DNA from: Gammaproteobacteria bacterium
Lineage (GTDB): Bacteria; Pseudomonadota; Gammaproteobacteria; Steroidobacterales; UBA11654
NCBI GenBank assembly: GCA_029242945.1
Contig: JAQWSZ010000035.1
Location: 12,695-76,694, forward strand
Direction: 5' to 3'
Length of the DNA: 64,000 nucleotides
Shown: piece after piece, positions 23,771 to 60,764 of the stretch
Layout: each line of letters opens with the position of its first letter
Numbering within the stretch: position 1 is the stretch's first letter
Program-made: the position numbers and the translations under genes
Notes under the pieces: model-generated
Databases searched by the model: none
What the model was told of the DNA's origin: nothing
The model's input: only the letters and a program-made list of their open reading frames with translations

Positions 23771-24853
23771 GTGGATATTCTGAGTAAATATTTGTCTATA
23801 GATGGTCTTAGAGATGACCCATCTCAACGATTAATTATTCAAGAGCTATCCTTATTGCAATCTCACTTAACTACTCTTGATAAAAACGAAAATAGATTTT
23901 TAAATATAGGATTCAAAAAGAGAGAGAAATGGGACAACAAAGGCATGTACTTATGGGGTGATGTAGGCAGAGGAAAAACATTTCTCATGGATTTATTTTT
24001 TGAAACCTTGGATATCAAAAAGAAAAAGAGATTACATTTTCATCATTTATTGGATGAAATCCATGAAGCCATTAAACTAACTAAGAATATAGAAAATCCA
24101 ATTGAAGACTTTGTTAAAAATATTGCTAAAGAGGTCAGAGTAATATGTTTTGATGAATTCTATATTGAAGATATAGCCGATGCTATGATACTGAGCAAAC
24201 TATTAGAAAATATATTCAAGTATAAAATATACCTTGTCATCACATCTAATTGTATGCCATCTGAGTTATATAAAGATGGCCTACAAAGAGATCTTTTTTT
24301 ACCCGCTATAGATTCAATTAAAAAAAACCTAATGATAATTAATATTAGTCAAGGTGTTGACTACAGACAAATCATTAATAAAAGCACTCAGCTTCCTATT
24401 GAAAATGATGATTATGATCATAAAAATCTTGAAAAATACTTTTTATCAATTAATGGGTCTAATTATAAAACAAATGAAAGCATTATTATTCGTGGAAGAG
24501 AAATTGAAAGTCTTTACTGTGGAGATCAAATAGTATGGTTCGATTTTCTCGCCATTTGTGGTTATAAAAGAAGTAAAAATGATTACATTGATATAGCAAA
24601 CAAATACAAAAACATCATCATCTCCAATATTATAGAAATGAATTCAGAAATGGAGAACGAAGCTAGAAGGTTCATTGCACTCATAGATGAATTATATGAT
24701 CAAAATATTAATCTAATACTAGCGACAAATAATGATTATAAAAATCTTTACCAAGGAGAAAAACTTAAATCTGAGTTTAAAAGAACTTATAGTAGATTAA
24801 TTGAAATGCAAGACAATGATTATTCTAATGGAAACAAAGATATAAATTTTTAA
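23771..24853 (+). CDS. zapE: AFG1-family ATPase ZapE
   Basis: GTG start; Walker A GDVGRGKTFLMD; Walker B ICFDEF. Confidence 0.8.
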   Translation: MDILSKYLSIDGLRDDPSQRLIIQELSLLQSHLTTLDKNENRFLNIGFKKREKWDNKGMYLWGDVGRGKTFLMDLFFETLDIKKKKRLHFHHLLDEIHEAIKLTKNIENPIEDFVKNIAKEVRVICFDEFYIEDIADAMILSKLLENIFKYKIYLVITSNCMPSELYKDGLQRDLFLPAIDSIKKNLMIINISQGVDYRQIINKSTQLPIENDDYDHKNLEKYFLSINGSNYKTNESIIIRGREIESLYCGDQIVWFDFLAICGYKRSKNDYIDIANKYKNIIISNIIEMNSEMENEARRFIALIDELYDQNINLILATNNDYKNLYQGEKLKSEFKRTYSRLIEMQDNDYSNGNKDINF

Positions 24854-26121
24854 ATAACTTCTTTATTGTCCATATAAGCTCTTAAAGCTTTAGGAACAAT
24901 AATTGACCCATCTTCTTGTTGGTAATTCTCTATAACAGCTATAAAAGTCCTTCCTACAGCCAAACCAGATCCATTTAAAGTATGCAGATATTCACTTTTA
25001 CCTGAGATATTATTTTTCCATCTTGCCTTAATTCTTCTTGATTGGAATGACTCACAATTACTGCATGAAGAAATTTCCCTATATCTATTTTGTGAAGGTA
25101 ACCAAACTTCAATGTCATAAGTTTTAGCCGAGGTATCTCCAGTATCACCAGCACACAATAATACAACTCTATAAGGTAATTCTAACTTTTTTAGAATTGA
25201 CTCAGCATGATTGGTAAGTTCTTCTAGCGCATCGTATGATTCTTCAGGTTTTACAATTTGAACTAATTCTACTTTTTCAAATTGATGCTGCCTGATCATA
25301 CCTTTTGTATCTTGACCATAAGAGCCTGCTTCTGATCTAAAACAGGGTGTATGGGCCACCATTTTAATCGGTAATTCAGTTTCATCTACTATTCTATCTC
25401 TGATGAGGTTTGTAAGTGGAACCTCTGCTGTAGGAATTAAATAAAAATCTTGATCTCCATTAATCTTGAATAGATCGGACTCAAATTTAGGCAGTTGTCC
25501 AGTTCCCTCAAGACTTCTTGACTTAACAAGACTCGGAACATAATGCTCTGTATAACCATTATTATTGGTTTGATGATCTAACATAAAAGCAATCAATGCT
25601 CTGTGAAGTTTTGCATAATTATTCTTAATGACAGTAAATCTTGATCCTGATAACTTCGATGCTTCCTCAAAATTTATTTCTCCTGACTGTTCACCTAATT
25701 CAACATGATCTTTAATACGATCATTACTTATTTTTGGCTCTCCCCACTTCTTTATTTCTAGATTTTCGCTTTCATTTTTCCCAGAAGGAACTGACTCATG
25801 AAGTATGTTGGGTATAGTCTTAGATAGATAATTAAAATCAGTCATGAGTTCAGATATTTTATCTTCGGATTCTTTTAATATTTTATTCAAAGATTTCATC
25901 TCTGTTTTTAATTCTTCTTTATCACTATCCAGTAGCTGATTTGATCCAATATCTTTTGAAATGAGATTCTTTTTACTTCTCATATCTTCAATATTGGATT
26001 GAATTTTTCTTACCTTTATATCGAGCTCAATAAAATAATCCAGATCAAAATTGCTGGATCTTTTGTGAAGACTACTAGCTATCAAGTCCCTATTTTTTCT
26101 TATAATTTTTGGATCAATCAT
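24850..26121 (-). CDS. serS: seryl-tRNA synthetase
   Basis: N-terminal coiled-coil arm and class II motifs (FRSEAGS, TLNGSGLAVGR). Confidence 0.95.
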   Translation of the reverse strand: MIDPKIIRKNRDLIASSLHKRSSNFDLDYFIELDIKVRKIQSNIEDMRSKKNLISKDIGSNQLLDSDKEELKTEMKSLNKILKESEDKISELMTDFNYLSKTIPNILHESVPSGKNESENLEIKKWGEPKISNDRIKDHVELGEQSGEINFEEASKLSGSRFTVIKNNYAKLHRALIAFMLDHQTNNNGYTEHYVPSLVKSRSLEGTGQLPKFESDLFKINGDQDFYLIPTAEVPLTNLIRDRIVDETELPIKMVAHTPCFRSEAGSYGQDTKGMIRQHQFEKVELVQIVKPEESYDALEELTNHAESILKKLELPYRVVLLCAGDTGDTSAKTYDIEVWLPSQNRYREISSCSNCESFQSRRIKARWKNNISGKSEYLHTLNGSGLAVGRTFIAVIENYQQEDGSIIVPKALRAYMDNKEVI

Positions 26122-26156
26122 TTAATTTTATTATTTCGATATTTATTAGTTATTAA

Positions 26157-26516
26157 TTATATCCATTTGCTGATAGTAAAAAAACCAACAATTACACCTA
26201 TACTATCAGCTATCCAATCAAACCATTCAAATGATCTATGAATAAAAAAACCCATTTGCATTAATTCTAATAAAAGACCAAAAAATACTAAGTAAGATAG
26301 AAGAATAAATTTATGGCTATATTTATAGATCATTACAAACCAGCTTGTTAAAAAAAAGAACATAAGAAAATGAATTAGCTTATCTATGCCAATCAATGAA
26401 TCAAATATTTCAATATCTGGTGTATTCATGAAATGCAAGACAGTTATAGATAAGACTAATAAAGTACTAATGAAGTTCTGAATGTCTTTGGATAAACCCT
26501 TAAAATAGTCAATCAT
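26157..26516 (-). CDS. VanZ-like membrane protein
   Basis: DKLIHFLMFFFL and DWIADSIGVIVG blocks. Start moved to the internal Met (track start 26567 overlaps lolA by 59 nt). Confidence 0.55.
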   Translation of the reverse strand: MIDYFKGLSKDIQNFISTLLVLSITVLHFMNTPDIEIFDSLIGIDKLIHFLMFFFLTSWFVMIYKYSHKFILLSYLVFFGLLLELMQMGFFIHRSFEWFDWIADSIGVIVGFFTISKWI

Positions 26517-27135
26517 TTGATTGGTCAATAATTTCAGTGTTTTTAGGAGGGTTAAAAACAAATTCATTGTTGCTAAGATTAGTGTTAATTAAAGCATTTA
26601 TCAGCTTTATTTCTAATGATTCATTTTTACTATCTACAAATGTAAGCTTATTCAAGATGCCGTTCAGGATACTGATATTTATCCTTTCAAAACTATTTCC
26701 TCTAGTATTTGAAATAAGTGAAAATAATACTTCACTGTCATCTGTATCAATTTTTTCAATCGAATAAAAATTTAAGATACTAGCATTTCTAAGAAGCAAA
26801 ATAAGAAATGAATCGTAAGCTTCTATAGGTAATGAAGAGATTAACAGCTGATTTAGCTGTGAATCAAAGATACTTAGTTTATCTTGATGTAAGATGATTT
26901 TCTTTACAAAAGGCTGCTTGATATCCCATATTAAGTGATGAGGTTTTTTTATTTTTATACGACCATTCGATTGATTGATCATTGCATTAGAAACAGAATA
27001 ATTCGTCTGTATAAAATCAGCTTTTATGGTATTTATATTCTCTAGATATTCTTTTAAGCTTAGTTCTTGTGTAGAAATATTTTGAAATAATAATATTAAT
27101 GATATACAAACAATTAGCTTACTGTTTACTTTCAT
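26509..27135 (-). CDS. lolA: outer-membrane lipoprotein carrier LolA
   Basis: Signal peptide and ADFIQ block. Conserved position between ftsK and serS as in E. coli. Confidence 0.7.
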   Translation of the reverse strand: MKVNSKLIVCISLILLFQNISTQELSLKEYLENINTIKADFIQTNYSVSNAMINQSNGRIKIKKPHHLIWDIKQPFVKKIILHQDKLSIFDSQLNQLLISSLPIEAYDSFLILLLRNASILNFYSIEKIDTDDSEVLFSLISNTRGNSFERINISILNGILNKLTFVDSKNESLEIKLINALINTNLSNNEFVFNPPKNTEIIDQSND

Positions 27136-27147
27136 TAAAATGAATAT

Positions 27148-29406
27148 TTAATCTTTAGGTGGGGGTGGAGCCAGTATTTCCCTCTTACCATTTGGCTCAA
27201 CCGCACTAAGTATGCCTATTTCTTCCATTTTCTCAATGATTCTTGCTGACCGATTGTATCCAATTCTTAATTTTCTTTGAACAGATGAAATAGAAGCATT
27301 TCTTGATTCGGTAACAAGTTTCACTGCCTCATCAAACAACGGGTCATTTTCGCTGTCATCAGAAGACTGACGATCCAAGCCTGGAAGATCATCAACGGCA
27401 CCAGAAGTTATTTCATCAATAAATATTGGCTCGGATTCTAGCTGTAATTCTTTCGAGACTTGATTGACCTCATCATCGGAAACGAAGGCGCCATGAACTC
27501 TTATAGGATTAGAGGAACCGGGAGCAATATATAACATATCTCCATTCCCTAATAAGCTCTCAGCTCCCATTTGATCCAAGATGGTTCTTGAATCAACTTT
27601 TGCTGAAACCTGGAATGCGATTCTGGATGGGATATTGGCTTTAATAAGACCTGTGATAACATCAACAGAAGGTCTCTGTGTTGCAACAATCATATGTATA
27701 CCTGAAGCTCTAGCTTTTGCTGCTAGTCGTGTTATTAACTGTTCCACTTTTTTACCAACAGTCAACATCATGTCAGCCAATTCATCAATAACTACAACAA
27801 TATTTGGCAAAGTTTCTAAATCCGGTATTGCTGTGCTTTCTCCTAATTGAATTTGTTTATCTACATCAAATAATGGATCTTGGATAGGTTCACCATTTTT
27901 TATTGCATCTTCAATTTTCTTATTTAAGCCTTTAAGGTTTCTTACTTTTAGTTCTGACATTAGCTTGTAACGTCTCTCCATTTCTACTACACACCAACGA
28001 AGAGCATTTGCTGCTTGCTTCATGTCTGTCACAACAGGTGCTAATAAATGAGGTATGCCTCCATATACAGATAACTCCAGCATTTTTGGATCTATTAGAA
28101 TCATCCTTACATCTTTCGGTGTTGCTTTATATAATAAACTTACAATCATGGCATTAATACCAACTGATTTACCTGAACCTGTTGTCCCTGCTATAAGAAG
28201 ATGAGGCATTTTTTGCAGATCAGCAACTATAGGATTACCAGCAATATCTTTACCCAAAGCAATAGATAAGGGTGAACCCATATCTTCAAATGTCTTAGAT
28301 CTAAGAATTTCTCCCAAAACAACTAGAGCTCTTTTTTCATTTGGAATTTCAATACCAATAAAAGATTTTCCTTCTATAACTTCAACTATCCTTACGCTTG
28401 ATACCGAAAGTGACCTTGCTAAATCTTTAGATAGATTACTAATTTGACTAACTTTAACCCCAGGGGCTGGATTGATTTCAAATCGTGTGACAATCGGTCC
28501 TGGAAGTACTTCTTCAACTGTTGCGTCAATCCCAAAATCTTTTAATTTTAATTCTAATAAACGTGATAAAGCTTCGAGTGATTCTTCTGAATTTCCGTAT
28601 TTTTCATTGGGTGTTTCATCCAAAAGATCTAAACTAGGAAGAGAAGTCGTATCACTGGATTCAAATAACTTAGATTGTCTTTGTTCTCTAGCTTTTAACC
28701 CTTCTTCTATTAAAGGTTTGGATTTTTCAATTTTTGGTTTTGAAGTGTATTTTTTAGGGGTTTTATCCACTTTAGTATCTGTGGAAAAAATTGTTTTGCT
28801 ATCAATTTCATTTTTTACTTCAACAGTCTTGTTAAGAGTATTCTTTATTTCAATAGCCTTAGAAATATCTTTAGATTTCAATAGTACTTTTTTGACAGCT
28901 GTAATAATTAATATACTAGTTTTTATTACATATCTGCCAATTAGGTCTATCAAACTAATCCATGAAAAACCGATAAACACAGGAAGAAAAGAAAACCAAA
29001 TAGCCAGCATTAAAAGAGTTGCTCCTATAAGGCTAAAGCTATTCAATAAAGAAGAAGCAATAACCAAGCCTAAAATTCCACCAGATCCTTCTGGCATCCA
29101 AGGTATAGATAGATGTATTGATGCGATTACACACGTTGTGATCAAAATTATGAGAAATGAAACAACTTTAAGTATTATCATTTCTTGATGAGACTGTTTT
29201 GATTCTTTAGATGTAATTAAAATCAAAGATAATATAAAGAATAGTAGCGGAATAAAATAACTGGATACTCCTATAAACGTTATTACTAAACTAGAAAAAA
29301 AAGAACCAAATATACCTATAAAGTTATAAACAATTTCATTAGAACCTGTCGAATTATATCCAGAATCAGTCGGGCTATAGGAAATTAAAGCCAAAAAGAA
29401 TATCAA
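27148..29406 (-). CDS. ftsK: DNA translocase FtsK (N-terminus probably extends upstream of the track start)
   Basis: Walker [10 protein letters not shown], Walker [12 protein letters not shown]-terminal gamma wHTH ([20 protein letters not shown]). The frame stays open to 29499 with no ATG/GTG. Confidence 0.9.
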
Positions 29407-29550
29407 ACCGAATGAGAATAATACGACTATAAGTGACTCTCGAAGTAATTCGCCTTTACTAAAAAACTTCTTGAAATTAATCTTTGAAATAATGATTCCT
29501 TATTTATAAATCAAATAATAAAATGAATTTAAGATAATATTTAAACTTAA

Positions 29551-30558
<1,008 letters not shown>

Positions 30559-52436: not shown

Positions 52437-53173
52437 TTTCTAGCCTTAATCAATATAGTTTGCATAGTTTTTACAGCTTCAGCGATCCCAATATCTAGAG
52501 ATTTTGCAATAATTGAATGTCCGATATTCAGTTCTTGTATTTCTTCAATCTTTGCAATTGGAGCTGTATTCTCATAGTGCAATCCATGGCCAGCATTCAC
52601 TCTTAGGCCTATTTTTTTAGCGTGTGATGCACACTCTTTAATTCTATTCAATTCATACTGTTGATCAGCAGGATTCAGACTGTCCGCATATGTGCCCGTA
52701 TGTATCTCTACTGCATCAGCTCCTGCCAATTGACTCGACTCAATTTGTTTAGGGTCAGGATCAACAAAGAATGAAACTCGTATTCCTGATTTTTTCATAC
52801 GCTCTGTTGCTATAGATAAGACATCCATTTGATTAAAGACATCTAAACCACCCTCTGTAGTTAGTTCGTCCCTGCTTTCTGGTACTAAACAACAATCATA
52901 AGGTTTGAGCGCACAAGCCATAGAAATCATCTCTTCTGTTAAGGCCATTTCAAGGTTAACCCTTGATTGTGAAATATTTATCAATCTTTCCACATCATGA
53001 TCTTGAATATGTCTTCTATCTTCTCTTAGATGAATAGTGATGCTGTCTGCACCATTTTTTTCTGCTATTAATGCAATCTCAACTGGATCTGGATAGTTAG
53101 TGCCTCTAGCCTGTCTTATCGTAGCTACATGATCAACATTAACACCTAATAAAATATTTTCTTTTTTGTTCAT
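52433..53173 (-). CDS. pdxJ: pyridoxine 5'-phosphate synthase
   Basis: LGVNVDHVATIRQARG, HLREDRRHI, EIHTG and NIGHSII blocks. Confidence 0.95.
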   Translation of the reverse strand: MNKKENILLGVNVDHVATIRQARGTNYPDPVEIALIAEKNGADSITIHLREDRRHIQDHDVERLINISQSRVNLEMALTEEMISMACALKPYDCCLVPESRDELTTEGGLDVFNQMDVLSIATERMKKSGIRVSFFVDPDPKQIESSQLAGADAVEIHTGTYADSLNPADQQYELNRIKECASHAKKIGLRVNAGHGLHYENTAPIAKIEEIQELNIGHSIIAKSLDIGIAEAVKTMQTILIKARK

Positions 53174-53236
53174 AATTCGATAGAAATAATTAACTAATAA
53201 TATATATTAGCAATAACTGATAATATTAATAAGCAA

Positions 53237-53266
53237 TTGTATTTATACAATAATTTTGAATATATA
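53237..53266 (+). promoter_or_regulatory. candidate sigma-70 promoter ahead of the riboswitch-like leader
   Basis: TTGTAT (53237-53242), 18 nt, TATATA (53261-53266). This would place the transcription start just before 53276. Such matches are common in AT-rich DNA. Confidence 0.2.
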
Positions 53267-53269
53267 GAA

Positions 53270-53364
53270 GTTAATCGTTCATTCACTCTAAATGTAGCAG
53301 TGAACGGAAGTAGACAATAAAGTTGAAGGAACGCTCTTAACCACTCTAAATGTAGAGTTAGGAG
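53270..53364 (+). promoter_or_regulatory. candidate glutamine riboswitch (glnA RNA motif) aptamer plus anti-SD expression platform
   Basis: Aptamer core spans 53276-53333. P1 is CGUUC/GAACG. A hairpin follows: UUCACU, 11-nt loop, AGUGAA. Then CGGAAGUAG-AC-AAUAAA-GUU-GAAGGAACG, with AGUA opposite GAA (E-loop-like). CUCUUAAC (53334-53341) is complementary to GUUAGGAG (53357-53364, includes the SD). Confidence 0.6.
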
Positions 53365-53370
53365 ATGAAA

Positions 53371-54771
53371 ATGAATAATTCAAGAATATTTTTGAATTCA
53401 ATAAACCAGATTTTTGATAAATCTGCCAAACTTCTAGGTCTGCCTGAAGACTTAGCTAATAAAATAAAACTAGCAAACTCAACCTATACAGTGAATTTTG
53501 GTGTTCGATTGAGAAATAAGCTGCATACATTCACAGGATTTAGATCCATTCATTCAGAGCATAATGAACCTGTAAAAGGAGGTATGCGATACTCTCTTGA
53601 TTCAACACAAGATGAAGTTGAAGCATTAGCAGCACTGATGACATATAAATGTTCACTAATGGAACTGCCTTTTGGTGGCTCTAAAGGTGCATTAATTATT
53701 GACCCAAACGCTTGGAATAAAAAAGAATTAGAAAAAATAACAAGAAGATTCACATCTGAACTAGCAAAAAGAAATCTAATTCATCCTTCACAGAATGTAC
53801 CAGCACCTGATATGGGTACTGATGAAAATGTTATGGCATGGATTGCTGATGAATACAGAAGATTGAATCCAACTGAAATGGACTCTCTAGCATGCGTTAC
53901 AGGGAAACCTATATCCAAAGGAGGTGTTCATGGAAGAAAAGAAGCCACAGGCAGAGGTGTGTTTTATGCTATAAAACAATTTTTAAAATATGAAAAAGAT
54001 TGCAAAAAGATAGGTCTTTCTCCGATCCTAGATGACCAAAAAATTATTATTCAAGGTTTTGGTAATGTTGGCTATCATGCAGCAAAACTACTCGAAGAAA
54101 ATGGGGCAAAAATTATCACTATCATTGAGCATGACGGTTCAATATCGAATGATAATGGTATTAATATTGATAACTTAAAAGAATACTTTGATAAAAAAAG
54201 AAAATTTAAAGGTTATAAAAATTATACGACAACGAGGAATAGATTTTTAAGTAAAAAATGCGACATATTAATACCAGCTGCAGTTGAAAATGTTATCAAT
54301 AAAAATAATGCTGAGAATATAAAAGCGAAATTAATTGTTGAGGCAGGCAATGGACCAGTTACGTCAATAGCTGATGAAATTCTTATAAAAAAAGGAATTA
54401 CCGTCATTCCTGATTTTTATGCGAATTCTGGAGGAGTCATAGTCTCTTATTTTGAATGGGTCAAAAATTTATCAAAAATGAGATATGGCCTGATGAATCA
54501 AAGGGATCAAGAAAATCGGCAATCAATTATGGTAAATGCTTTAGAAACAATGATTGAAAAAAACTTTCCAATTGAACTAAAAGAAGAAATTATTAAAGGC
54601 TCCACAGAAATAGATCTAGTCAGATCAGGACTGGAAGAAACAATGTCTTCTGGTTATTACCAAATACATGAGAAATTCCATTCGGATAAAAGAATTGATA
54701 ATTTAAGAACAGCAGCAATGATGATTGCTATACAAAAAGTAGCTGATTCCTATGACTATCTTGGGATATAG
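53371..54771 (+). CDS. Glu/Leu/Phe/Val dehydrogenase family protein, probable glutamate dehydrogenase
   Basis: Catalytic-Lys block PFGGSKGAL and NAD(P) fold GFGNVG. Start is either the ATG at 53365 or the one at 53371; 53371 has better spacing from AGGAG at 53360-53364. Confidence 0.8.
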   Translation: MNNSRIFLNSINQIFDKSAKLLGLPEDLANKIKLANSTYTVNFGVRLRNKLHTFTGFRSIHSEHNEPVKGGMRYSLDSTQDEVEALAALMTYKCSLMELPFGGSKGALIIDPNAWNKKELEKITRRFTSELAKRNLIHPSQNVPAPDMGTDENVMAWIADEYRRLNPTEMDSLACVTGKPISKGGVHGRKEATGRGVFYAIKQFLKYEKDCKKIGLSPILDDQKIIIQGFGNVGYHAAKLLEENGAKIITIIEHDGSISNDNGINIDNLKEYFDKKRKFKGYKNYTTTRNRFLSKKCDILIPAAVENVINKNNAENIKAKLIVEAGNGPVTSIADEILIKKGITVIPDFYANSGGVIVSYFEWVKNLSKMRYGLMNQRDQENRQSIMVNALETMIEKNFPIELKEEIIKGSTEIDLVRSGLEETMSSGYYQIHEKFHSDKRIDNLRTAAMMIAIQKVADSYDYLGI

Positions 54772-54913
54772 TTTCATCGAAGAGTTTAATTGCTTTGAAT
54801 AAAGAAACAATTTAATATTGCTATAGGATCCATAACTTCTCCTTCATGAGCATAAATGAAGTTAAAGCTGACTTTAGATCAATATAATTAAAGATTGTAT
54901 CTAAAAGAGAATT

Positions 54914-56497
54914 ATGAACTATTTGAAAAGCTTTGCAACGGTCTATCCACTAGATGGAATTAATGAAGACAAACTAGGTAAATGTCAAAATCTTCTGGAT
55001 GGAAAATGGATCAATGAGACTAACTACTTTGATAATATCCTAGATCCAATAACTGGAAAAAATTTCTTAGACATACCAAAAACAGAAGATATTTCTGGAT
55101 ACATAAACAGTCTAGGCATCTGCCCGAAAAGTGGACTACATAACCCATTAAAAAATAATGACCGGTATATTATGCTTGGCAATGTTTGCAGCAAAGCAGC
55201 ACACATATTACACGATAAAGAGGTGGAAACTTTTTTTGCACTTTTAATACAAAGAGTAATGCCAAAAACATTAAATCAATGTCTTGGTGAAGTAAGAGTT
55301 ACGAGAACATTTTTAGAAAATTTTGCAGGTGACGGTGTTAGATTTCTAGGCCGTGGTTTTTCTAATCCTGGAGATTACACAGGGCAAGAATCGTCGGGTT
55401 ATCGATGGCCATTTGGATCGGTAGTAATTATTACTCCTTTTAATTTTCCTTTAGAAATTCCAGTACTGCAGTTCCTAGGTGCCTTGTTTATGGGAAATAG
55501 ACCACTTGTCAAACCCGATGAAAAAGTTGGTATTGTTTTTGAACAGTTTTTAAGATTATTAATTTTTTGTGGACTTCCAAGTCAAGACTCAAACTTAATT
55601 TACTGCGATGGATCAACAATGGGTACTTTAATAAAGCAAGCCAAAAAAAATATTCGTATGATTCAATTCACAGGATCATCAAAAGTAGCACATCAAATTA
55701 TTCAAGAAATGGATGGAAAAGTTAAGATTGAAGATGCTGGCTTTGACTGGAAGATTATCGGTCCAGATTATGATCCACAATGGAGTGATTATGTAGCTTG
55801 GCAATGTGATGAAGATGCTTATAATGCTTCAGGACAAAAGTGTTCAGCTCAAAGTATTCTATTCGTTCATGAAAATTGGCAAGAAGACCTACTTCCAAAA
55901 ATTAAAACACTAGCTGAAAGAAGAAAACTTGATAATCTCAGTATAGGACCAGTGCTTACTTGGAATAATAATCAACTCTTTAATCACATCAATCAATTAT
56001 TAACTATACCTGATGCTGTCTGTCTATTTGGCAATGAACCATTGGAAAACCATAATATACCAACAAATTATGGAGCGATAAAACCAACAGCAATACAAAT
56101 ACCTATAGAGCATTTAATGACAGAATATTTTGATTTAATCACCACTGAAGTTTTTGGACCAATTCAAGTTATTATTTCATACAATAACGATTCATTACCT
56201 ATTGTACTTAAAGGATTAGAAAATATTTCTCATAATTTATCAGCAGCTATTGTTAGCAATGATTTACTCTTTCAGCAAGAAATATTAGGAAGCACCATCA
56301 ATGGAACAACTTATGTAGGAATGAGAGCTAGAACAACAGGTGCCCCACAAAATCATTGGTTTGGTCCAGCTGGTGATCCAAGGGCTGCAGGTATCGGAAC
56401 GATTGAAGCAATTGTCAATACCTGGAGCGGACATAGAGAGATTATTAAAGATATTGGTCCCATTGATTCTGATTGGAATATACCGGAGATAAACTAA
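54914..56497 (+). CDS. aldehyde dehydrogenase, probable 1-pyrroline-5-carboxylate/glutamate-semialdehyde dehydrogenase
   Basis: ALDH blocks including KIEDAGFDWK and the catalytic-Cys block SGQKCSAQS. Function inferred from coupling to the aminotransferase gene (TAATG overlap). Confidence 0.7.
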   Translation: MNYLKSFATVYPLDGINEDKLGKCQNLLDGKWINETNYFDNILDPITGKNFLDIPKTEDISGYINSLGICPKSGLHNPLKNNDRYIMLGNVCSKAAHILHDKEVETFFALLIQRVMPKTLNQCLGEVRVTRTFLENFAGDGVRFLGRGFSNPGDYTGQESSGYRWPFGSVVIITPFNFPLEIPVLQFLGALFMGNRPLVKPDEKVGIVFEQFLRLLIFCGLPSQDSNLIYCDGSTMGTLIKQAKKNIRMIQFTGSSKVAHQIIQEMDGKVKIEDAGFDWKIIGPDYDPQWSDYVAWQCDEDAYNASGQKCSAQSILFVHENWQEDLLPKIKTLAERRKLDNLSIGPVLTWNNNQLFNHINQLLTIPDAVCLFGNEPLENHNIPTNYGAIKPTAIQIPIEHLMTEYFDLITTEVFGPIQVIISYNNDSLPIVLKGLENISHNLSAAIVSNDLLFQQEILGSTINGTTYVGMRARTTGAPQNHWFGPAGDPRAAGIGTIEAIVNTWSGHREIIKDIGPIDSDWNIPEIN

Positions 56498-57714
56498 TGA
56501 GCGCCTCTAAACAACAATACTTGATAGACAAAGAATTGAACTTTGGACCTGATAACTATAAACCCATACCAGTAGTTTTAACCAAAGCTAAAGGAGTTTG
56601 GGTTTGGGATGTAGATGGAAATAAATATTTAGATATGATGTCTGCTTATTCTGCTGTCAGTCATGGACATTCTCACCCTGAACTACTCAAAGTTTTGCAT
56701 GAACAATCCAGTCGCTTAGCACTAACATCAAGAGCTTTCTATACTGATACTCTAGGCTCTTACTTGGAAAAAATTACCTCACTGAGTAATTTTGATATGG
56801 CACTTCCAATGAATTCAGGTGCGGAAGCAGTTGAAACCGCTATCAAGGCAGCTAGAAGATGGGGCTATCGTTCAAAAAATATTGCATCTGATAAAGCTGA
56901 GATTATAGTTGCTGATGGTAATTTTCATGGAAGAACAACCACCATTATAAGTTTCTCTAGTTCACCAAATTCAAAAGACGATTTTGGTCCACTCACATCA
57001 GGATTTGTTTCTGTTCAATTTGGTTCGTCTAAAGCCATCAAAGAAGCTATAAATGAAAATACAGCAGCTGTCTTAATTGAACCTATACAAGGCGAAGGTG
57101 GAATTATTGTACCCCCTGAAAACTACCTCTCCGAAATCAGAGACATTTGCACAAATAATAACATTCTTATGATACTTGACGAAGTACAATCAGGACTTGG
57201 CAGAACAGGTAAAATGTTTGCATTTGAACATGCAAATATTCAACCTGATGGACTAATACTTGGGAAAGCTCTAGGTGGTGGTTTTATGCCTGTTTCATGC
57301 TTTTTATCTACCAATGAAGTTATGCAATGGCTCACACCAGGTTCCCATGGTTCAACTTTCGGAGGTAATCCACTTGCAGCTGCTATTGGTAAAAGAGCTC
57401 TTGAGCTCCTTGAAGAAGAAAATTTAATTGAAAATAGCAGAATACTTGGTGAGTATTTTAAAAATGAACTCATTAATATGAAAAGCAAAACAATATTAGA
57501 TGTTAGAGGTAAGGGCCTTTGGATTGGAGTCCAAATGAATCCCAATTTTATCTCTGGTAAGGAGTTATCTAATTTACTCCTTAAAAAAGGTATTTTAGCT
57601 AAAGAAACACATGAAACAGTTATTCGTTTTGCTCCCCCACTAGTGATCTCAAAACAAGAAATTGATTGGGCGCTTGATACTATAAAAGAGATTCTTCAAG
57701 ATACTTCATCCTAA
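56497..57714 (+). CDS. rocD: ornithine aminotransferase (class III PLP aminotransferase)
   Basis: YKPIPVVLTKAKGVWVWDVDGNKYLDMMSAYSAVSHGH, DEVQSGLGRTGK and GSHGSTFGGNPLA blocks. Start at the ATG overlapping the ALDH stop, GGAG 10 nt upstream (the track starts at a TTG at 56473). Confidence 0.85.
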   Translation: MSASKQQYLIDKELNFGPDNYKPIPVVLTKAKGVWVWDVDGNKYLDMMSAYSAVSHGHSHPELLKVLHEQSSRLALTSRAFYTDTLGSYLEKITSLSNFDMALPMNSGAEAVETAIKAARRWGYRSKNIASDKAEIIVADGNFHGRTTTIISFSSSPNSKDDFGPLTSGFVSVQFGSSKAIKEAINENTAAVLIEPIQGEGGIIVPPENYLSEIRDICTNNNILMILDEVQSGLGRTGKMFAFEHANIQPDGLILGKALGGGFMPVSCFLSTNEVMQWLTPGSHGSTFGGNPLAAAIGKRALELLEEENLIENSRILGEYFKNELINMKSKTILDVRGKGLWIGVQMNPNFISGKELSNLLLKKGILAKETHETVIRFAPPLVISKQEIDWALDTIKEILQDTSS

Positions 57715-57733
57715 TTTATACAGAGCTTAAATC

Positions 57734-58630
57734 ATGTCTTTGCAATCAACCAATCATGTACTTTTGATTAAACCTGCTGAATTCTATTGTAATGAACAAA
57801 CAATTGAAACTAATCACTATCAAGAAATTAATAGCGAAAAAACTAAAGATGAGATATTACAAGAAGCATTAATAGAATTTACAGAATTCGAAAACATATT
57901 AAAAAGAAATAAAATAAAAGTAACTACTCTAATAGGACAAATAGGTTGTCCTGATAATATTTTTCCAAATTGGGCAGTGAGCTACGATGATCATACTATT
58001 GATATATTCAGTATGCTTGGCATGAATCGAAGACTAGAAAAATCTGAAAAACATATATCTTTTCTAAACCAAACCTACAACACAAATATTAATTATAGCA
58101 GTCTTGAAGATAAATCAATTTATCTAGAAGGAACTAGCAGTTTAGTACTAGATCGTGTTAATAAACATGCTTATATGGGAATTTCATCAAGATCAAATCC
58201 TGAGCTTGCAAACCAATGGTGTCAAGCTAGAGGTTATAAACTCATATATTTTGATACTATAAGTCATACTGGAAAGTCTATCTATCATACTGATGTAATG
58301 ATGTATATAGGCACAAAACTTGCAGTAATTTGCTCAGAATGCATAGCAGATGATTCTCAAGCCCTAGTATTGGAAAGACTTAGATCCACACACGATATTT
58401 TAGAAATATCCAATGAACAATTAGTTAGTTTTTGTGGGAATTGCATTGAAGTTTATGATGAAAATAATGAATCACATTTAATTATGTCCACAACAGCTTA
58501 CAACGCTTATAACAAAGAACAGAAAACAGTTCTTCTAAAGTATTATAAAAGTATTATCCATTCTGATCTTGAATCTATTGAGAAATATGGTGGAGGCTCA
58601 GCTCGATGTATGATCATGGAATTATTCTAG
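57734..58630 (+). CDS. pentein (guanidine-group-modifying enzyme) superfamily hydrolase, arginine-deiminase-related clade
   Basis: 298 aa. C-terminal nucleophile motif GGGSARCM, internal HTDV block, and an N-terminal LLIKPAEFYCNEQT start typical of small amidinotransferase-fold proteins. Confidence 0.6.
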   Translation: MSLQSTNHVLLIKPAEFYCNEQTIETNHYQEINSEKTKDEILQEALIEFTEFENILKRNKIKVTTLIGQIGCPDNIFPNWAVSYDDHTIDIFSMLGMNRRLEKSEKHISFLNQTYNTNINYSSLEDKSIYLEGTSSLVLDRVNKHAYMGISSRSNPELANQWCQARGYKLIYFDTISHTGKSIYHTDVMMYIGTKLAVICSECIADDSQALVLERLRSTHDILEISNEQLVSFCGNCIEVYDENNESHLIMSTTAYNAYNKEQKTVLLKYYKSIIHSDLESIEKYGGGSARCMIMELF

Positions 58631-59785
58631 ACTTAAAACCCTTTCATATAAATCAGGGTCAGTATCACCTTCTGTTGAATAGAACAGAACGTTTGATCTT
58701 TCATTAAGATTAAGCTCTTTCTTAATATGATCATAATCATTATTGGTGCAAATGGCATGTAAAAAACCAATAGGCACTGCTCCACTTTCTCCAGACACTA
58801 TCTTTTGATCTCCTTTGATTGGATTACCACAAATCTTCATTCCTTTGAATGCCACATCATCACTACATATGGCAAAATAATCAGCTAATTCTTTTATAAT
58901 ATTCCAAGCTAGTAGACTCGGCATACCGCATGACAATCCTGCCATTATTGTATTAAGTTCCTTTATCAAATGAGCACTGCCATCTCCCACTTTAATAGAA
59001 TTATAGAAACAAGCAGCACCATGGGGTTCAAGAATAATTAATTTAGGTTTGGGTTTGGGTTTAGATTGATTTATGAAATTTATTAATATTGATGCTGCAA
59101 AGGAGCCAACACCAGCTTGGACAATAATATGCGTTGGCCAATTATTATATTGTTTAATAAATTCTGTAACCATAGTTGAGTAACCCAGCATAATATTCTG
59201 TGGTATATCCAAATAGCCATTCCATGATGAATCTTGCAGTAATATCCAATTCTTTTCAGATGCCTTATTTTTTGTATATTTGACTGTCTCATCATAATTA
59301 AATTCCGTTATTTCAGCTGAGGCATCATTGTCTAAAATAGCATCTAGCCTATTCTTAGAAGTGCCTTTAGGCATATATACAATTGCCTTACACCCAAATT
59401 GCTTTGCCGTCCATGCAACAGCTCTTCCATGGTTCCCATCCGTAGCTGTTGTAAATGTAAGATTATTAATTTGGCCTGAATACTTCTTAATACCCTCAAA
59501 AGTTACATCATTTACATCAAGTTTTAAATATTTAACAATTTCAAGTGCCATGGCATAACTTGCACCTAGAACTTTGAAAGCATTTAGATTTAATCGAAAA
59601 CTTTCATCCTTAACTAAGCATTGATTGATACCAATACTTTTGGAAAAGTTTTTAAGTTCCACCAAAGGTGTAGGTTTATAGTTAGGCAAACTTTGATGAA
59701 ATTTAAATGCTAATTCACTACTCCAATTTAAATTGAAGTTTTTATTCTTAAAGGGATTAGAAATACAATCGATTTGGTGATTCAA
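58622..59785 (-). CDS. diaminopropionate ammonia-lyase (DpaL/YgeX)-family PLP enzyme
   Basis: FHQSLPNYKPTPLVEL...VKDESFRLNLNAFKVLGASYA parallels the E. coli YgeX N-terminal region including the PLP lysine. TTG start 10 nt after the upstream stop. Confidence 0.7.
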   Translation of the reverse strand: MNHQIDCISNPFKNKNFNLNWSSELAFKFHQSLPNYKPTPLVELKNFSKSIGINQCLVKDESFRLNLNAFKVLGASYAMALEIVKYLKLDVNDVTFEGIKKYSGQINNLTFTTATDGNHGRAVAWTAKQFGCKAIVYMPKGTSKNRLDAILDNDASAEITEFNYDETVKYTKNKASEKNWILLQDSSWNGYLDIPQNIMLGYSTMVTEFIKQYNNWPTHIIVQAGVGSFAASILINFINQSKPKPKPKLIILEPHGAACFYNSIKVGDGSAHLIKELNTIMAGLSCGMPSLLAWNIIKELADYFAICSDDVAFKGMKICGNPIKGDQKIVSGESGAVPIGFLHAICTNNDYDHIKKELNLNERSNVLFYSTEGDTDPDLYERVLSLE

Positions 59786-59795
59786 AATAAATACT

Positions 59796-60764
59796 CTATT
59801 TTTTAAACTGATTGGCTAGCAAACAAAGAATTTCATACATCATAGTCGCGCCTACAAGAGCTGTGTTACCAGTCTGATCATAGGGTGGTGCAACCTCAAC
59901 TACATCTCCCCCAATAAAATTCAATCCGTTTAATCCTCTTAAAAATTGTTGCGCCTCCAAAGTAGTAATACCTCCAACTTCGGGAGTACCAGTGCCAGGT
60001 GCATAAACAGGATCCAATCCATCAACATCAAAAGATAAATATACAGGGCCATTACCAACAACCTTAATTGCTTCTTTAATGACTTCTTTTACACCAAGAT
60101 CAGAAAATTCCTCAATAAAAATGACTCGCATTCCTGTTGAGAGAGAGAAATCAATTCCATCTGTGAAGTTTTGTGCACCTCTAATGCCGATCTGTATCGT
60201 TCTTTTAGGGTCAAGTAAGCCAGATTCAACTGCCGATCTAAATGGTGAACCATGATGAAACTTTGAACCCCAGATTTCTCCCCAAGTATCAGTATGAGCA
60301 TCTATATGGATCATGCCTATTGGATCACCTTTAACTAAACCCTTAAATATAGGATAAGTTATAGAATGATCTCCTCCAGCAGATAAAGGAATAACTCCAG
60401 CATTCTGCAAACTACTATAGAATTCAACAATATCATCATGGACAGATTGATGATCAAATGGCTTAGTAAACGAAACATCGCCAACATCAGCAATGCTAGC
60501 AATGTCATAAGGATTGATCCTTGTAACATGATGTATGTTTCGCATTAGAGTTGATTGATTTCTTATTTCTCTAGGGCCATGCCTGGCTCCTGCTCTATTG
60601 GTTACACCACCATCATATGGAACACCAACCATAGCTATATCTAAATCATCTAAAGAATCAGCTAGTGGTGTCCTCATAAATGTAGGTATACCTGAGTAAC
60701 GTGGCTCTTGATTAGCAAAATACTCTTTACCAGTAACTGGGGATATATATTTTTTATGTTTCAT
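59796..60764 (-). CDS. ureohydrolase of the agmatinase/guanidino-acid hydrolase family
   Basis: Mn-binding blocks GGDHSITYP, IHIDAHTDTW, SFDVDGLDPVYAPGTGTPEVGG. Confidence 0.8.
   Translation of the reverse strand: MKHKKYISPVTGKEYFANQEPRYSGIPTFMRTPLADSLDDLDIAMVGVPYDGGVTNRAGARHGPREIRNQSTLMRNIHHVTRINPYDIASIADVGDVSFTKPFDHQSVHDDIVEFYSSLQNAGVIPLSAGGDHSITYPIFKGLVKGDPIGMIHIDAHTDTWGEIWGSKFHHGSPFRSAVESGLLDPKRTIQIGIRGAQNFTDGIDFSLSTGMRVIFIEEFSDLGVKEVIKEAIKVVGNGPVYLSFDVDGLDPVYAPGTGTPEVGGITTLEAQQFLRGLNGLNFIGGDVVEVAPPYDQTGNTALVGATMMYEILCLLANQFKK

What the first reader, a model, noticed from the sequence alone, without database searches (positions are those of the whole stretch)
53270..53373. Glutamine-riboswitch-like aptamer with an anti-SD platform in front of a glutamate-dehydrogenase-led catabolic gene set
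Aptamer: 53276-53333 reads CGUUC-A-[UUCACU / 11-nt loop / AGUGAA]-CGGAAGUAG-AC-AAUAAA-GUU-GAAGGAACG. As I recall it, this reproduces the conserved core of the glutamine riboswitch (glnA RNA motif). That core is P1 CGUUC/GAACG, a variable hairpin, and the strands ACGGAAGUAG ... GAAGGAACG that build an E-loop (AGUA opposite GAA). Platform: directly 3' of P1, CUCUUAAC (53334-53341) can pair at 8 of 8 positions (one G-U) with GUUAGGAG (53357-53364), which contains the Shine-Dalgarno. Two structures compete with that pairing. The UUAAC part can instead pair with GUUAA (53270-53274), extending P1. A local hairpin ACUCUA/UAGAGU (53343-53358) also competes. An exact 14-nt direct repeat CACUCUAAAUGUAG sits once inside the aptamer hairpin (53284-53297) and once in the platform (53342-53355). 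These mutually exclusive pairings look like a translational switch; an ON switch upon P1 stabilisation is my favoured reading. Novelty: to my knowledge glutamine riboswitches are described from cyanobacteria, cyanophages and marine metagenomes, upstream of glnA/amt/glnB/gltS/gifB-type genes. Here the host gene order is gammaproteobacterial. The controlled gene is a Glu-type dehydrogenase heading an ornithine-to-2-oxoglutarate route. That would be a new lineage and a new regulon.
Basis: partly seen in the sequence, partly recalled or inferred. Interest (0 to 1): 0.85.

Follow-up and report, generated by a model that had tools for sequence, protein, structure and literature searches.

The report
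Glutamine riboswitch before glutamate dehydrogenase
A genuine glutamine-sensing RNA switch sits in front of a glutamate dehydrogenase gene in an uncultured marine gammaproteobacterium; the switch class is known, but this host group and this catabolic target gene have not been described for it.

Summary
Window 53274-53337 (+) matches Rfam RF01739 (glutamine riboswitch) at 55.7 bits (threshold 35), over the full model, with every conserved core position present. Directly 3' of P1, a bulged 12-bp hairpin (53334-53364) buries the Shine-Dalgarno AGGAG of a 466-aa glutamate dehydrogenase, whose true start is 53371. Aptamer and hairpin recur upstream of the orthologous dehydrogenase in seven diverged lineages that share the same operon. 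The 31-nt hairpin is identical in all seven, although third-codon positions are about 55% identical. A helix between the nucleotides just after P1 and the SD is the standard platform of cyanobacterial gifB leaders (50 of 72; 0.4 expected). In those leaders glutamine turns translation ON. I therefore read this as a glutamine-ON translational switch. The GUUAA/UUAAC "P1 extension" is at chance level and not conserved, and the two "competing" helices stack into one hairpin. The exact 14-nt repeat is lineage-specific. The "new lineage" claim is overstated: RF01739 aptamers are common in SAR86, SAR11 and other marine proteobacterial genomes. The dehydrogenase association appears undescribed. Verdict: new member of a known kind, moderate interest.

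The parts
53274..53337 (+). Glutamine riboswitch aptamer (Rfam RF01739, type 1 / glnA RNA)
   Evidence: cmscan 55.7 bits against gathering 35, E 1.5e-9, full model. Orthologous copies score 51.8-57.9 bits in L121, L122, L213, L214 and L215.
53276..53333 (+). P1 helix: CGUUC (53276-80) pairs with GAACG (53329-33)
   Evidence: Rfam alignment. Intact in all 7 lineages.
53282..53304 (+). P1a hairpin: UUCACU / 11-nt loop / AGUGAA. The loop varies between lineages.
   Evidence: Family-wide covariation: at least 4 bp in 131 of 148 aptamers, against 2.7% of shuffles.
53305..53312 (+). Conserved junction CGGAAGUA. By alignment to the solved riboswitch, G53307 is the ligand-dependent 'linchpin' G (G23).
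   Evidence: Matches the invariant Rfam consensus. The role of G23 is taken from PMC11477058 section 2.3, summarising Ren 2015. The residue correspondence is my inference from the consensus.
53313..53324 (+). P2 hairpin: GAC / AAUAAA / GUU. The G-U pair is G-C in the other six lineages.
   Evidence: Family-wide: at least 3 bp in 136 of 148 aptamers, against 4.8% of shuffles.
53325..53328 (+). GAAG: 3' strand of the E-loop / junction, leading into P1
   Evidence: Invariant consensus positions.
53334..53334 (+). C immediately 3' of P1. It is the equivalent of linchpin C60 (C68 in Synechocystis). It is also the closing pair of the SD sequestor (C53334-G53364).
   Evidence: Conserved C in the Rfam consensus GGAACGC. 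Its role is taken from PMC6212724 section 20 and PMC11477058.
53334..53364 (+). SD-sequestering bulged hairpin. Lower stem CUCUUA (53334-39) / UAGGAG (53359-64). Bulge ACC (53340-42). Upper stem ACUCUA (53343-48) / UAGAGU (53353-58). Loop AAUG (53349-52).
   Evidence: MFE -10.4 kcal/mol, z -2.83. The lower stem is worth about 4 kcal/mol. The 31 nt are 31/31 identical in 7 lineages, while third-codon identity is 0.53-0.56.
53360..53364 (+). Shine-Dalgarno AGGAG
   Evidence: 6-nt spacer to AUG 53371. The same spacing is seen in all orthologues. P(unpaired) is at most 0.02 for these five nucleotides (at most 0.04 for U53359-G53364) in the unconstrained ensemble.
53371..54771 (+). Glutamate dehydrogenase, 466 aa, GLUD1-like; the gene directly controlled
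   Evidence: Pfam ELFV_dehydrog_N and ELFV_dehydrog. All 52 PDB matches are glutamate dehydrogenases, best about 370 bits. Called as 466 aa on public contigs.
53284..53297 (+). First copy of the exact 14-nt direct repeat CACTCTAAATGTAG (aptamer hairpin). Window lineage only, plus a SAR86 paralogue (L034).
53342..53355 (+). Second copy of the 14-nt repeat (platform upper hairpin). Conserved in all 7 lineages.
54914..58630 (+). Downstream same-strand genes: aldehyde dehydrogenase (P5C-dehydrogenase-like; 54914-56497), ornithine aminotransferase (56497-57714), CtlX-like citrulline hydrolase (57734-58630). Probably co-transcribed, but not directly controlled by a translational switch.
   Evidence: Pfam and NCBIfam. 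No terminator-like site between 54771 and 54914. The same order is seen in L121, L122, L214 and L215.
53190..53233 (.). Conserved intergenic block upstream of the leader. Candidate promoter region shared with the divergent pdxJ. The transcription start is not determined.
   Evidence: Alignment of four lineages. The consensus promoter scan gave no more sites than chance.

Best explanation
Window 53274-53337 is a functional type-1 glutamine riboswitch aptamer in the 5' leader of a glutamate dehydrogenase mRNA. The host is an uncultured, low-GC marine gammaproteobacterium related to SAR86.

By default a bulged hairpin that begins at the very next nucleotide after P1 (53334-53364) base-pairs with the whole Shine-Dalgarno sequence and keeps translation low.

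When glutamine is abundant it binds the aptamer. The junction G (G53307) then captures C53334 in the ligand-dependent 'linchpin' pair that caps P1. This removes the closing pair and the P1 stacking from the weak, roughly 4 kcal/mol lower stem (CUCUUA/UAGGAG). The SD opens and the dehydrogenase is translated. This makes it a glutamine-ON translational switch.

Physiologically this would let glutamate, including glutamate made from arginine, ornithine or citrulline by the co-located enzymes, be deaminated to 2-oxoglutarate plus ammonium only when the cell is nitrogen-replete. That avoids a futile cycle with glutamine synthetase under nitrogen limitation.

Shown: aptamer identity, the hairpin and its burial of the SD, its conservation, and its equivalence to the gifB platform.

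Inferred: glutamine binding by this RNA, the direction of the switch, the linchpin step, and the physiology.
For: - Aptamer: RF01739 at 55.7 bits (gathering 35), full length.
- Orthologous leaders in 6 further lineages score 51.8-57.9 bits.
- P1a and P2 covary across 148 distinct aptamers.
- Platform: one hairpin, -10.4 kcal/mol, z -2.83.
- SD accessibility, as P(unpaired) for U53359-G53364: at most 0.04 with or without the aptamer secondary structure; a mean of about 0.35 (range 0.02-0.58) when C53334 is withheld; 0.88-0.98 for four of the six nucleotides when 53334-36 are withheld.
- Energetics: the full hairpin is -9.1 kcal/mol and the upper stem alone -4.9. The SD-covering stem is therefore worth about 4 kcal/mol, comparable with binding of a millimolar-affinity ligand.
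- Conservation: 31/31 nt identical in 7 lineages whose dehydrogenase third-codon identity is 0.53-0.56. The chance of that is about 1e-8 per comparison. The boundaries are sharp: SD-to-AUG spacer 1/6 identical, P1a loop 6-7/11 identical.
- Same design elsewhere: in 50 of 72 cyanobacterial leaders the six nt after GAACG form a perfect helix with a hexamer ending at most 14 nt before an ATG, against 0.38 expected. The helix covaries: CGCCUC/GAGGCG, CGCUUC/GAAGCG, CGUUCC/GGAACG, CACCUC/GAGGUG. SAR86 leaders have CAUCUU/GAGAUG.
- For that platform, glutamine 'enhanced protein synthesis in vivo'. The authors postulate that the C after P1 and its neighbours pair with the RBS and that glutamine melts this helix (PMC6212724 abstract and section 20).
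- No intrinsic terminator lies in the leader, so control is translational.
- Circumstantial direction: in Pelagibacter, GdhA is lower under N limitation, and an Amt with a riboswitch-like leader is made only when N is replete (PMC3870248).
Against: - No experiment exists on this RNA.
- Nearest-neighbour thermodynamics does not by itself predict any switching. The SD stays buried whether or not the aptamer helices form. The ON step therefore rests on a tertiary contact taken from the literature, cited second-hand.
- Losing one C-G pair costs only 1.6-2.4 kcal/mol, and five lower-stem pairs could persist.
- Within the dehydrogenase clade no pair varies, so the hairpin has no internal covariation support.
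- The loop (AAUG) and bulge (ACC) are also invariant. A simple sequestor does not explain that, and it hints at an extra partner or contact.
- The transcription start is unknown.
- An arginine/ornithine-scavenging logic would predict the opposite direction (OFF at high glutamine).
Confidence: 0.62

Rival explanations
1. Glutamine-OFF switch. The ligand-stabilised P1 stacks coaxially on the adjacent sequestering hairpin and reinforces SD burial. In the free state some alternative fold opens the SD. The dehydrogenase and arginine/ornithine catabolism would then be made when nitrogen is scarce.
For: The hairpin starts with zero linker after P1, so coaxial stacking is geometrically possible. Nitrogen scavenging from arginine or citrulline is typically induced under N limitation (general knowledge). 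Other members of the family look like OFF designs; for example, in L108 the start codon lies 3 nt after GAACG and the SD sits inside the aptamer.
Against: No competing structure that frees the SD exists in the unconstrained ensemble: P(unpaired) is at most 0.04. The same P1-adjacent anti-SD design is the experimentally ON gifB platform (PMC6212724). According to Klähn's account of Ren 2015, ligand binding melts a short helix attached to P1 rather than stabilising it.
Confidence: 0.15
2. Glutamine stabilises P1, which is extended by GUUAA (53270-74) pairing with UUAAC (53337-41). This pulls the anti-SD strand away from the SD, so the switch is ON. The local hairpin and the 14-nt repeat provide further competing folds.
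For: In the window the state 'aptamer + P1 extension + upper hairpin' lies only 2.9-3.9 kcal/mol above the sequestered state. With the SD forced free, the best fold in four lineages uses some 5'-flank/anti-SD pairing.
Against: The pairing is no better than shuffled flanks: 13-45% of shuffles are as good. The 5' flank is not conserved (AGUUAAU, UUUAUGAU, UUUAUGAA, AACGCAAU), and in L214/L215, by inspection of the flank, it cannot extend P1. There is no enrichment in 72 cyanobacterial leaders: -0.95 against -1.42 kcal/mol for shuffles. GUUAA may lie upstream of the transcription start. The literature reports melting, not extension, of the helix next to P1 on binding. The exact 14-nt repeat is absent from six of the seven lineages.
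Confidence: 0.08
3. The aptamer senses glutamine, but the invariant hairpin is primarily the site of a trans-acting partner (a protein, an sRNA or an RNase) or docks onto the aptamer. The output would then be more than simple SD masking, for example mRNA stability or a combined signal.
For: The 4-nt loop, the 3-nt bulge and both stems are invariant across lineages whose neutral sites are near saturation. Meanwhile the aptamer's own loops drift (notebook 'unexplained').
Against: No candidate partner was identified. The hairpin sequence occurs nowhere else in the window or in the fetched loci. SD burial by the lower stem is sufficient for a default-OFF state.
Confidence: 0.1
4. The aptamer is an evolutionary relic with no regulatory role, and the hairpin merely sets a constitutive low translation rate.
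For: No experimental data exist. One orthologue (L121) carries GUAG->GCAG in the conserved junction.
Against: All conserved core positions are kept in the other six of seven lineages while adjacent loops, flanks and spacers diverge. L121 is a low-coverage contig (coverage 2.8 in its name), so its change may be a sequencing error.
Confidence: 0.05

Closest known systems
Type 1 glutamine riboswitch (glnA RNA motif, Rfam RF01739) in the gifB (IF17) leader of Synechocystis sp. PCC 6803 and other cyanobacteria (Klähn et al. 2018, PMC6212724; Ames & Breaker 2011; Ren et al. 2015)
   Same: The aptamer is the same: P1, P1a, P2, CGGAAGUA and GAAGGAACG-C, with all consensus positions present. The platform logic is the same: the C just after P1 plus the next nucleotides pair with the SD a few nt before the start codon. 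The output is translational, and I predict the ON direction.
   Different: The host is a heterotrophic gammaproteobacterium, not a cyanobacterium. The target is a 466-aa catabolic-type glutamate dehydrogenase at the head of an arginine/ornithine/citrulline catabolic gene set, not a small glutamine-synthetase-inactivating factor. The sequestering helix is elaborated by an extra invariant 6-bp hairpin and a 3-nt bulge inside its loop. The anti-SD is CUCUUA rather than CGCCUC.
Tandem RF01739 aptamers of SAR86 / gammaproteobacterial MAGs in front of small basic ORFs
   Same: Same host group. L034's first aptamer has a P1, hairpin and junction identical to the window's (38 nt). The platform type is the same (CAUCUU/GAGAUG), and the SD context AGGAGAUG is shared.
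   Different: Those are tandem pairs with a short simple hairpin platform and unannotated 50-60-aa ORFs. The window has a single aptamer, a longer platform and an enzyme gene.
Glutamine-II riboswitch (Downstream-peptide motif, RF01704)
   Same: It senses glutamine, is an ON switch, acts on translation and shares binding-site features (PMC6698751).
   Different: It has a pseudoknot fold without the three-way junction. No RF01704 match was found in the window at E up to 1.
Riboswitch-like leaders of amt / amtB in 'Candidatus Pelagibacter ubique' (Meyer 2009; Smith 2013, PMC3870248)
   Same: A streamlined marine heterotroph in which RNA leaders are thought to stand in for protein nitrogen regulators. 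One Amt is made only under N-replete conditions although its mRNA level is unchanged.
   Different: Those papers do not identify the leaders as glutamine riboswitches, and they control transporters rather than a dehydrogenase. I did not test whether they are the tandem RF01739 elements seen here upstream of amt in SAR11-type genomes.

Membership tests
Glutamine riboswitch type 1 (Rfam RF01739) | Covariance-model score at or above the curated gathering threshold (35 bits), full-length match | tested here: met
   55.7 bits, E 1.5e-9, model positions 1-53 of 53.
Glutamine riboswitch type 1 (Rfam RF01739) | Three-stem architecture: P1 (CGUUC/GAACG), variable hairpin P1a, short hairpin P2 | tested here: met
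   P1 has 5 bp, P1a 6 bp and P2 3 bp, all standard pairs. P1a and P2 covary across 148 family members.
Glutamine riboswitch type 1 (Rfam RF01739) | Invariant junction / E-loop strands ACGGAAGUA ... GAAGGAACG | tested here: met
   Exact match at 53304-53312 and 53325-53333.
Glutamine riboswitch type 1 (Rfam RF01739) | Linchpin pair partners: the second G of CGG and the C immediately 3' of P1 | tested here: met
   G53307 and C53334 are present and invariant in 7 lineages. Formation of the pair itself cannot be tested here.
Glutamine riboswitch type 1 (Rfam RF01739) | Selective binding of L-glutamine with a conformational change | not testable with these tools
   Needs in-line probing, ITC or NMR on the 53270-53340 transcript.
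Glutamine riboswitch type 1 (Rfam RF01739) | Location in the 5' leader of a nitrogen-metabolism gene, conserved in orthologous leaders | tested here: met
   The aptamer's P1 ends 37 nt upstream of the glutamate dehydrogenase start (the Rfam match ends 33 nt upstream). It is present in 7 lineages with the same operon.
gifB-type (glutamine-ON) expression platform | The nucleotides directly 3' of P1, starting with the linchpin C, base-pair with the SD close to the start codon | tested here: met
   CUCUUA/UAGGAG, 6 of 6 pairs, seen in 1 of 200 shuffles. Found in 50 of 72 cyanobacterial leaders against 0.38 expected.
gifB-type (glutamine-ON) expression platform | Expression rises with glutamine | not testable with these tools
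   Shown only for Synechocystis gifB and a Prochlorococcus element (PMC6212724).
Glutamine-II riboswitch (RF01704) | Covariance-model match | tested here: not met
   No hit in the window at E up to 1.
Transcription-terminating riboswitch platform | Intrinsic terminator (GC-rich stem followed by a U tract) between the aptamer and the start codon | tested here: not met
   0 terminator-like sites in 53100-53450. The hairpin is followed by AUGAAAAUG.

The most novel reading that the evidence does not exclude
Glutamine riboswitches, published as exclusive to cyanobacterial genomes, may be a main nitrogen-status sensor of the dominant streamlined marine heterotrophs (SAR86, SAR11, SAR116 and relatives). 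They would sit on amt, glnA, gltD-like, porin-like and IF17-like genes, and the window adds the first catabolic enzyme target. Here a glutamine-ON switch would gate glutamate deamination to nitrogen-replete conditions. Its platform, a 31-nt hairpin frozen across deeply diverged lineages, would use an additional, still unknown contact or partner beyond simple SD masking.
Probability: 0.3. Interest if true: 0.7.

Novelty: new member of a known kind. Interest (0 to 1): 0.5.

Why it matters
- It would extend a riboswitch class characterised only in cyanobacteria, where it controls a glutamine-synthetase inhibitor, to heterotrophic marine gammaproteobacteria.
- It would extend the class to the catabolic side of the glutamate node: glutamine-gated deamination of glutamate.
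- The many RF01739 elements found here in SAR86 and SAR11-type genomes give a concrete, testable candidate for how abundant streamlined ocean bacteria sense nitrogen status with little protein machinery. Some of these bacteria are reported to lack the PII/NtrBC system.
- It offers a natural pair of designs, ON-type and probable OFF-type platforms on one aptamer, for mechanistic study.

Tried and rejected
1. P1 extension (GUUAA/UUAAC). I computed energies, ran shuffle controls and compared 72 cyanobacterial leaders. It is at chance level and not conserved, so I rejected it as the mechanism.
2. A functional role for the exact 14-nt repeat. Orthologous aptamer loops differ and L214/L215 share only CACU. 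It is a lineage-specific relic or conversion; the same hairpin occurs in a SAR86 paralogue, L034.
3. The platform as a degenerate second (tandem) aptamer. There is no second RF01739 hit in the window at E up to 1. The similarity to the aptamer's 5' half stays suggestive only.
4. Covariation within the dehydrogenase clade. No pair varies, so it is uninformative.
5. Naming the organism. Two protein searches and a cluster look-up give only 'Gammaproteobacteria bacterium'. The SAR86 affinity rests on about 67% nucleotide collinearity with SAR86 single-cell genomes and on the shared aptamer module.
6. Locating the transcription start. The consensus promoter scan was at chance level, so it is unresolved.
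7. Ren 2015 and Ames & Breaker 2011 could not be read. Their content is cited second-hand from PMC6212724 and PMC11477058.
8. The weak SAM_alpha hit at 24090-24150 lies inside an ORF and is probably chance.
Full report
**Observation.** The sequence is as described. Rfam's curated model RF01739 (glutamine riboswitch, glnA RNA) matches window 53274-53337 on the + strand at 55.7 bits. The gathering score is 35, E is 1.5e-9, and all 53 model positions are aligned. A permissive scan finds no second copy and no glutamine-II (RF01704) element in the 64 kb. P1 (CGUUC/GAACG), the hairpin P1a (UUCACU/AGUGAA), P2 (GAC/GUU) and the invariant strands CGGAAGUA and GAAGGAACG-C are all present. The exact 14-nt repeat is at 53284 and 53342.

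**Setting.** The window has about 32% GC. The gene downstream is an ELFV-family dehydrogenase. All 52 of its significant PDB matches are glutamate dehydrogenases, and the best are the mitochondrial GLUD1 type at about 365-371 bits. Public gene calls give 466 aa, so the start is AUG 53371. AGGAG (53360-64) then lies 6 nt upstream, as in every orthologue.

The following genes are on the same strand:
- an aldehyde dehydrogenase, P5C-dehydrogenase-like but below the equivalog cut-offs;
- an ornithine-oxo-acid transaminase (TIGR01885, 522.6 bits against a cut-off of 378.4);
- a CtlX-like citrulline hydrolase (282.8 bits against a cut-off of 334).

A diaminopropionate ammonia-lyase and an agmatinase-family ureohydrolase converge on this block. 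The whole block lies between recO and pdxJ of the gammaproteobacterial array lepB-rnc-era-recO ... pdxJ-acpS. No terminator-like site separates the dehydrogenase from the next gene.

Source names stop at 'Gammaproteobacteria bacterium'. However, window 25-30.5 kb is collinear, at about 67% nucleotide identity, with a SAR86 single-cell genome. A SAR86 MAG (L034) also carries an aptamer whose first 38 nt are identical to the window's. I therefore treat the host as a SAR86 relative, without proof.

**Conservation.** I collected dehydrogenase relatives from metagenomes and by exact-protein look-ups.
- The riboswitch is present in seven lineages: the window (identical in ten samples), L121, L122, L212, L213, L214 and L215. 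Dehydrogenase identity to the window is 73-80%, and Rfam scores are 51.8-57.9 bits where tested.
- Where the contig reaches the flanking genes (L121, L122, L213, L214, L215, and the window's own contigs), these lineages share the synteny pdxJ | GDH, followed by ALDH where the downstream gene could be identified.
- Dehydrogenase homologues in other contexts (L123-L160, at most 76% identity) have none of the window's flanking genes next to them. None of the 13 whose upstream region I scanned with the Rfam model (L123-L126, L128, L129, L131-L137) has the aptamer.
- Between the three deep groups, third-codon identity is 0.53-0.56.
- Against that background, the 31 nt from the end of P1 through the SD are 31/31 identical in all seven lineages.
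- By contrast, the P1a loop (6-7 of 11 identical), two P2-loop positions, the 5' flank and the SD-to-AUG spacer (1 of 6 identical) have diverged.

This is strong purifying selection with sharp edges. Because nothing varies, the clade itself gives no covariation evidence.

**Family-wide structure.** A scan of 185,579 species-representative genomes for the aptamer core stopped at its 120-locus limit. About 49 of those loci are labelled SAR86, Gammaproteobacteria, Porticoccaceae, SAR116, Pelagibacteraceae, Rhodobacterales or 'Alphaproteobacteria' single-cell genomes. All 28 aptamers that I re-tested from 16 such loci pass the Rfam threshold at 51.7-68.5 bits.

Across 148 distinct aptamers:
- P1a forms at least 4 consecutive pairs in 131 (2.7% of shuffles do);
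- P2 forms at least 3 pairs in 136 (4.8% of shuffles do);
- every stem position shows several Watson-Crick pair types.

The genes downstream of the proteobacterial copies are ammonium transporters, glutamine synthetases, circularly permuted ATP-grasp proteins, Gcw_chp porin-like proteins, a gltD-like oxidoreductase, a TonB receptor and small ORFs. None is a dehydrogenase.

**Expression platform.** Its energy is -10.4 kcal/mol with z -2.83. It starts at the nucleotide after P1 and covers the entire SD.

In the unconstrained ensemble the SD is unpaired with probability at most 0.04. Imposing P1, P1a and P2 does not change this. Ordinary competing secondary structures therefore do not make a switch here.

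The SD-covering lower stem is worth only about 4 kcal/mol: the full hairpin is -9.1 and the upper stem alone -4.9. Withholding C53334 raises SD accessibility to a mean of about 0.35 (range 0.02-0.58). Withholding 53334-36 raises it to about 0.9 for four of the six nucleotides.

[quoted passage not shown] According to PMC6212724 section 20, the equivalent C68 of Synechocystis gifB and the nucleotides after it can pair with the RBS. The authors postulate that glutamine melts this inhibitory helix, and they show that glutamine enhances protein synthesis (their abstract).

I tested whether this design is general.
- In 50 of 72 cyanobacterial leaders the six nt after GAACG form a perfect 6-bp helix with a hexamer ending at most 14 nt before an ATG. 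Shuffles give 0.38.
- The helix covaries: CGCCUC/GAGGCG, CGCUUC/GAAGCG, CGUUCC/GGAACG, CACCUC/GAGGUG.
- SAR86 leaders L013 and L034 have CAUCUU/GAGAUG. L066 and L116 have CACC/GGUG.
- The window has CUCUUA/UAGGAG, which arose in 1 of 200 shuffles.

The window's platform is therefore a gifB-type platform, elaborated by an inserted hairpin. By alignment to the consensus, C53334 is the linchpin C and G53307 its partner. On this basis I favour a glutamine-ON translational switch.

The GUUAA/UUAAC P1 extension exists in the window, and the resulting SD-free state lies only 2.9-3.9 kcal/mol above the sequestered one. However:
- shuffled 5' flanks do as well in 13-45% of trials;
- the flank is different in the other lineages, and in L214/L215, by inspection of the flank, it cannot extend P1;
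- cyanobacterial leaders show no such complementarity;
- the literature describes melting, not extension, next to P1.

The exact 14-nt repeat is confined to the window's lineage. It probably reflects common descent or conversion between the aptamer hairpin and the platform hairpin. The orthologues L121, L122 and L212 still share 10 of 14 positions (my count from the sequences).

**What remains unexplained.** The loop AAUG and the bulge ACC of the platform, and both stems, never change, while the aptamer's own loops drift. A simple sequestor does not require this. A tertiary contact or a trans-acting partner cannot be excluded. The transcription start is not located. The direction of the switch is inferred, not shown.

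**Physiology (inference).** A glutamine-ON dehydrogenase would deaminate glutamate only when nitrogen is plentiful, and so avoid a futile cycle with glutamine synthetase. Two observations in Pelagibacter fit this direction but do not prove it. GdhA is about half as abundant under N limitation. An Amt with a riboswitch-like leader is made only when N is replete, although its mRNA level is unchanged (PMC3870248).

**Novelty.** The class is known. The canonical papers place it in 'cyanobacteria and marine metagenomes' (PMC2864571), or 'exclusively' in cyanobacterial genomes (PMC6212724 abstract). RF01739 hits in SAR86 and Pelagibacter MAGs, and in pelagiphages and a methylophage, have been mentioned only in passing (PMC12379486, PMC9004378). 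No paper in the searchable library links the riboswitch to control of a glutamate dehydrogenase. The finding is a new member of a known kind: a new host group in the described sense, a new target gene, and an elaborated but recognisable platform.

Noticed in passing
L001-L120 (genome contigs), e.g. L092 7358-7532, L037 2345-2447, L063 3412-3530, L007 5240-5358: RF01739 aptamers are common in SAR86, unnamed Gammaproteobacteria, Porticoccaceae, SAR116, Pelagibacteraceae and Rhodobacterales genomes. They are mostly tandem pairs or triplets, upstream of amt, glnA, circularly permuted ATP-grasp, Gcw_chp porin-like, gltD-like and TonB-receptor genes. This contradicts the published statement that the class is exclusive to cyanobacterial genomes.
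   Followed up: partly
L088 7563-7742 (+), Porticoccaceae MAG: A 60-aa ORF behind tandem glutamine aptamers matches DUF4278, the family of the cyanobacterial glutamine-synthetase inactivating factor IF17, over its full length (E 1.2e-4; 22.8 bits against a gathering score of 25.3). This suggests IF17-like regulators outside cyanobacteria.
   Followed up: partly
L025 (-) about 2725-2886, L052 (-) about 2380-2541, L034 6937-6999, L116, L066: SAR86 and gammaproteobacterial tandem aptamers with a gifB-type platform precede small lysine-rich ORFs of 36-70 aa. Two of them end in ...PYYL. They have no Pfam family and may be functional analogues of GS-inactivating factors.
   Followed up: partly
L034 6804-6867 (+), SAR86 MAG: The first aptamer of a tandem pair has a P1, hairpin (including CACTCTAAATGTAG) and junction identical to window 53276-53313. 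This points to duplication or conversion between paralogous riboswitches within this lineage.
   Followed up: partly
window 54400-54768 (dehydrogenase residues 344-466): The C-terminal 123 residues align end to end with the antenna-containing region of mitochondrial GLUD1-type glutamate dehydrogenases (8qf0, 1l1f). The 415-420-aa prokaryotic enzymes align over only about 25 residues. This bacterial enzyme therefore seems to carry an antenna-like insertion, a feature associated with allosteric control in animals.
   Followed up: partly
window 53371-60764: The catabolic block (GDH, ALDH, ornithine aminotransferase, CtlX-like; convergent diaminopropionate ammonia-lyase and agmatinase-family enzyme) is inserted between recO and pdxJ of the otherwise classical lepB-rnc-era-recO-pdxJ-acpS array.
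   Followed up: partly
L009, L012, L021, L041, L042, L058, L063, L078 and other SAR11-type loci: In the tandem leaders of alphaproteobacterial single-cell genomes, the linker GCAUGCAAAGUUAU is complementary to a downstream AUAACUAGAGCAUG. The two would enclose the second aptamer in a long-range helix. This platform differs from the window's and I did not analyse it further.
   Followed up: no
L018, L020, L037, L043, L092, L107, L110 (SAR86-type leaders): A third platform type follows GAACG: C.CCGUUAAAC ... GAGUUUAAC. Its CGUU could pair with the P1 3' strand (an anti-P1 element). It sits upstream of Gcw_chp, TonB-receptor and GS-like genes.
   Followed up: no
L108 7031-7040 (+): The start codon lies 3 nt after GAACG, so the only SD-like sequence (GAAGGA) is inside the aptamer. 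This looks like an OFF-type design on the same aptamer class.
   Followed up: no
L121 5735-5797: This orthologous aptamer has GUAG->GCAG in the conserved junction (51.8 bits). The contig has low coverage, so this may be a sequencing error or a decaying copy.
   Followed up: no
window 25063-30553 versus L092 68-5268 and L043: This region is collinear with SAR86-type contigs at about 67% identity. In those contigs a triple glutamine aptamer lies about 2 kb beyond the shared block. The window has no aptamer at the equivalent place.
   Followed up: partly
window 24090-24150 (+): A weak SAM_alpha (RF00521) match (24 bits against a gathering score of 36, E 0.33) lies inside ORF 23771-24853. It is probably chance.
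   Followed up: partly
window 53292-53297 and 53350-53355: Both copies of the 14-nt repeat contain an AUG-UAG start-stop pair. There is no SD in front of either, so they are probably meaningless.
   Followed up: no
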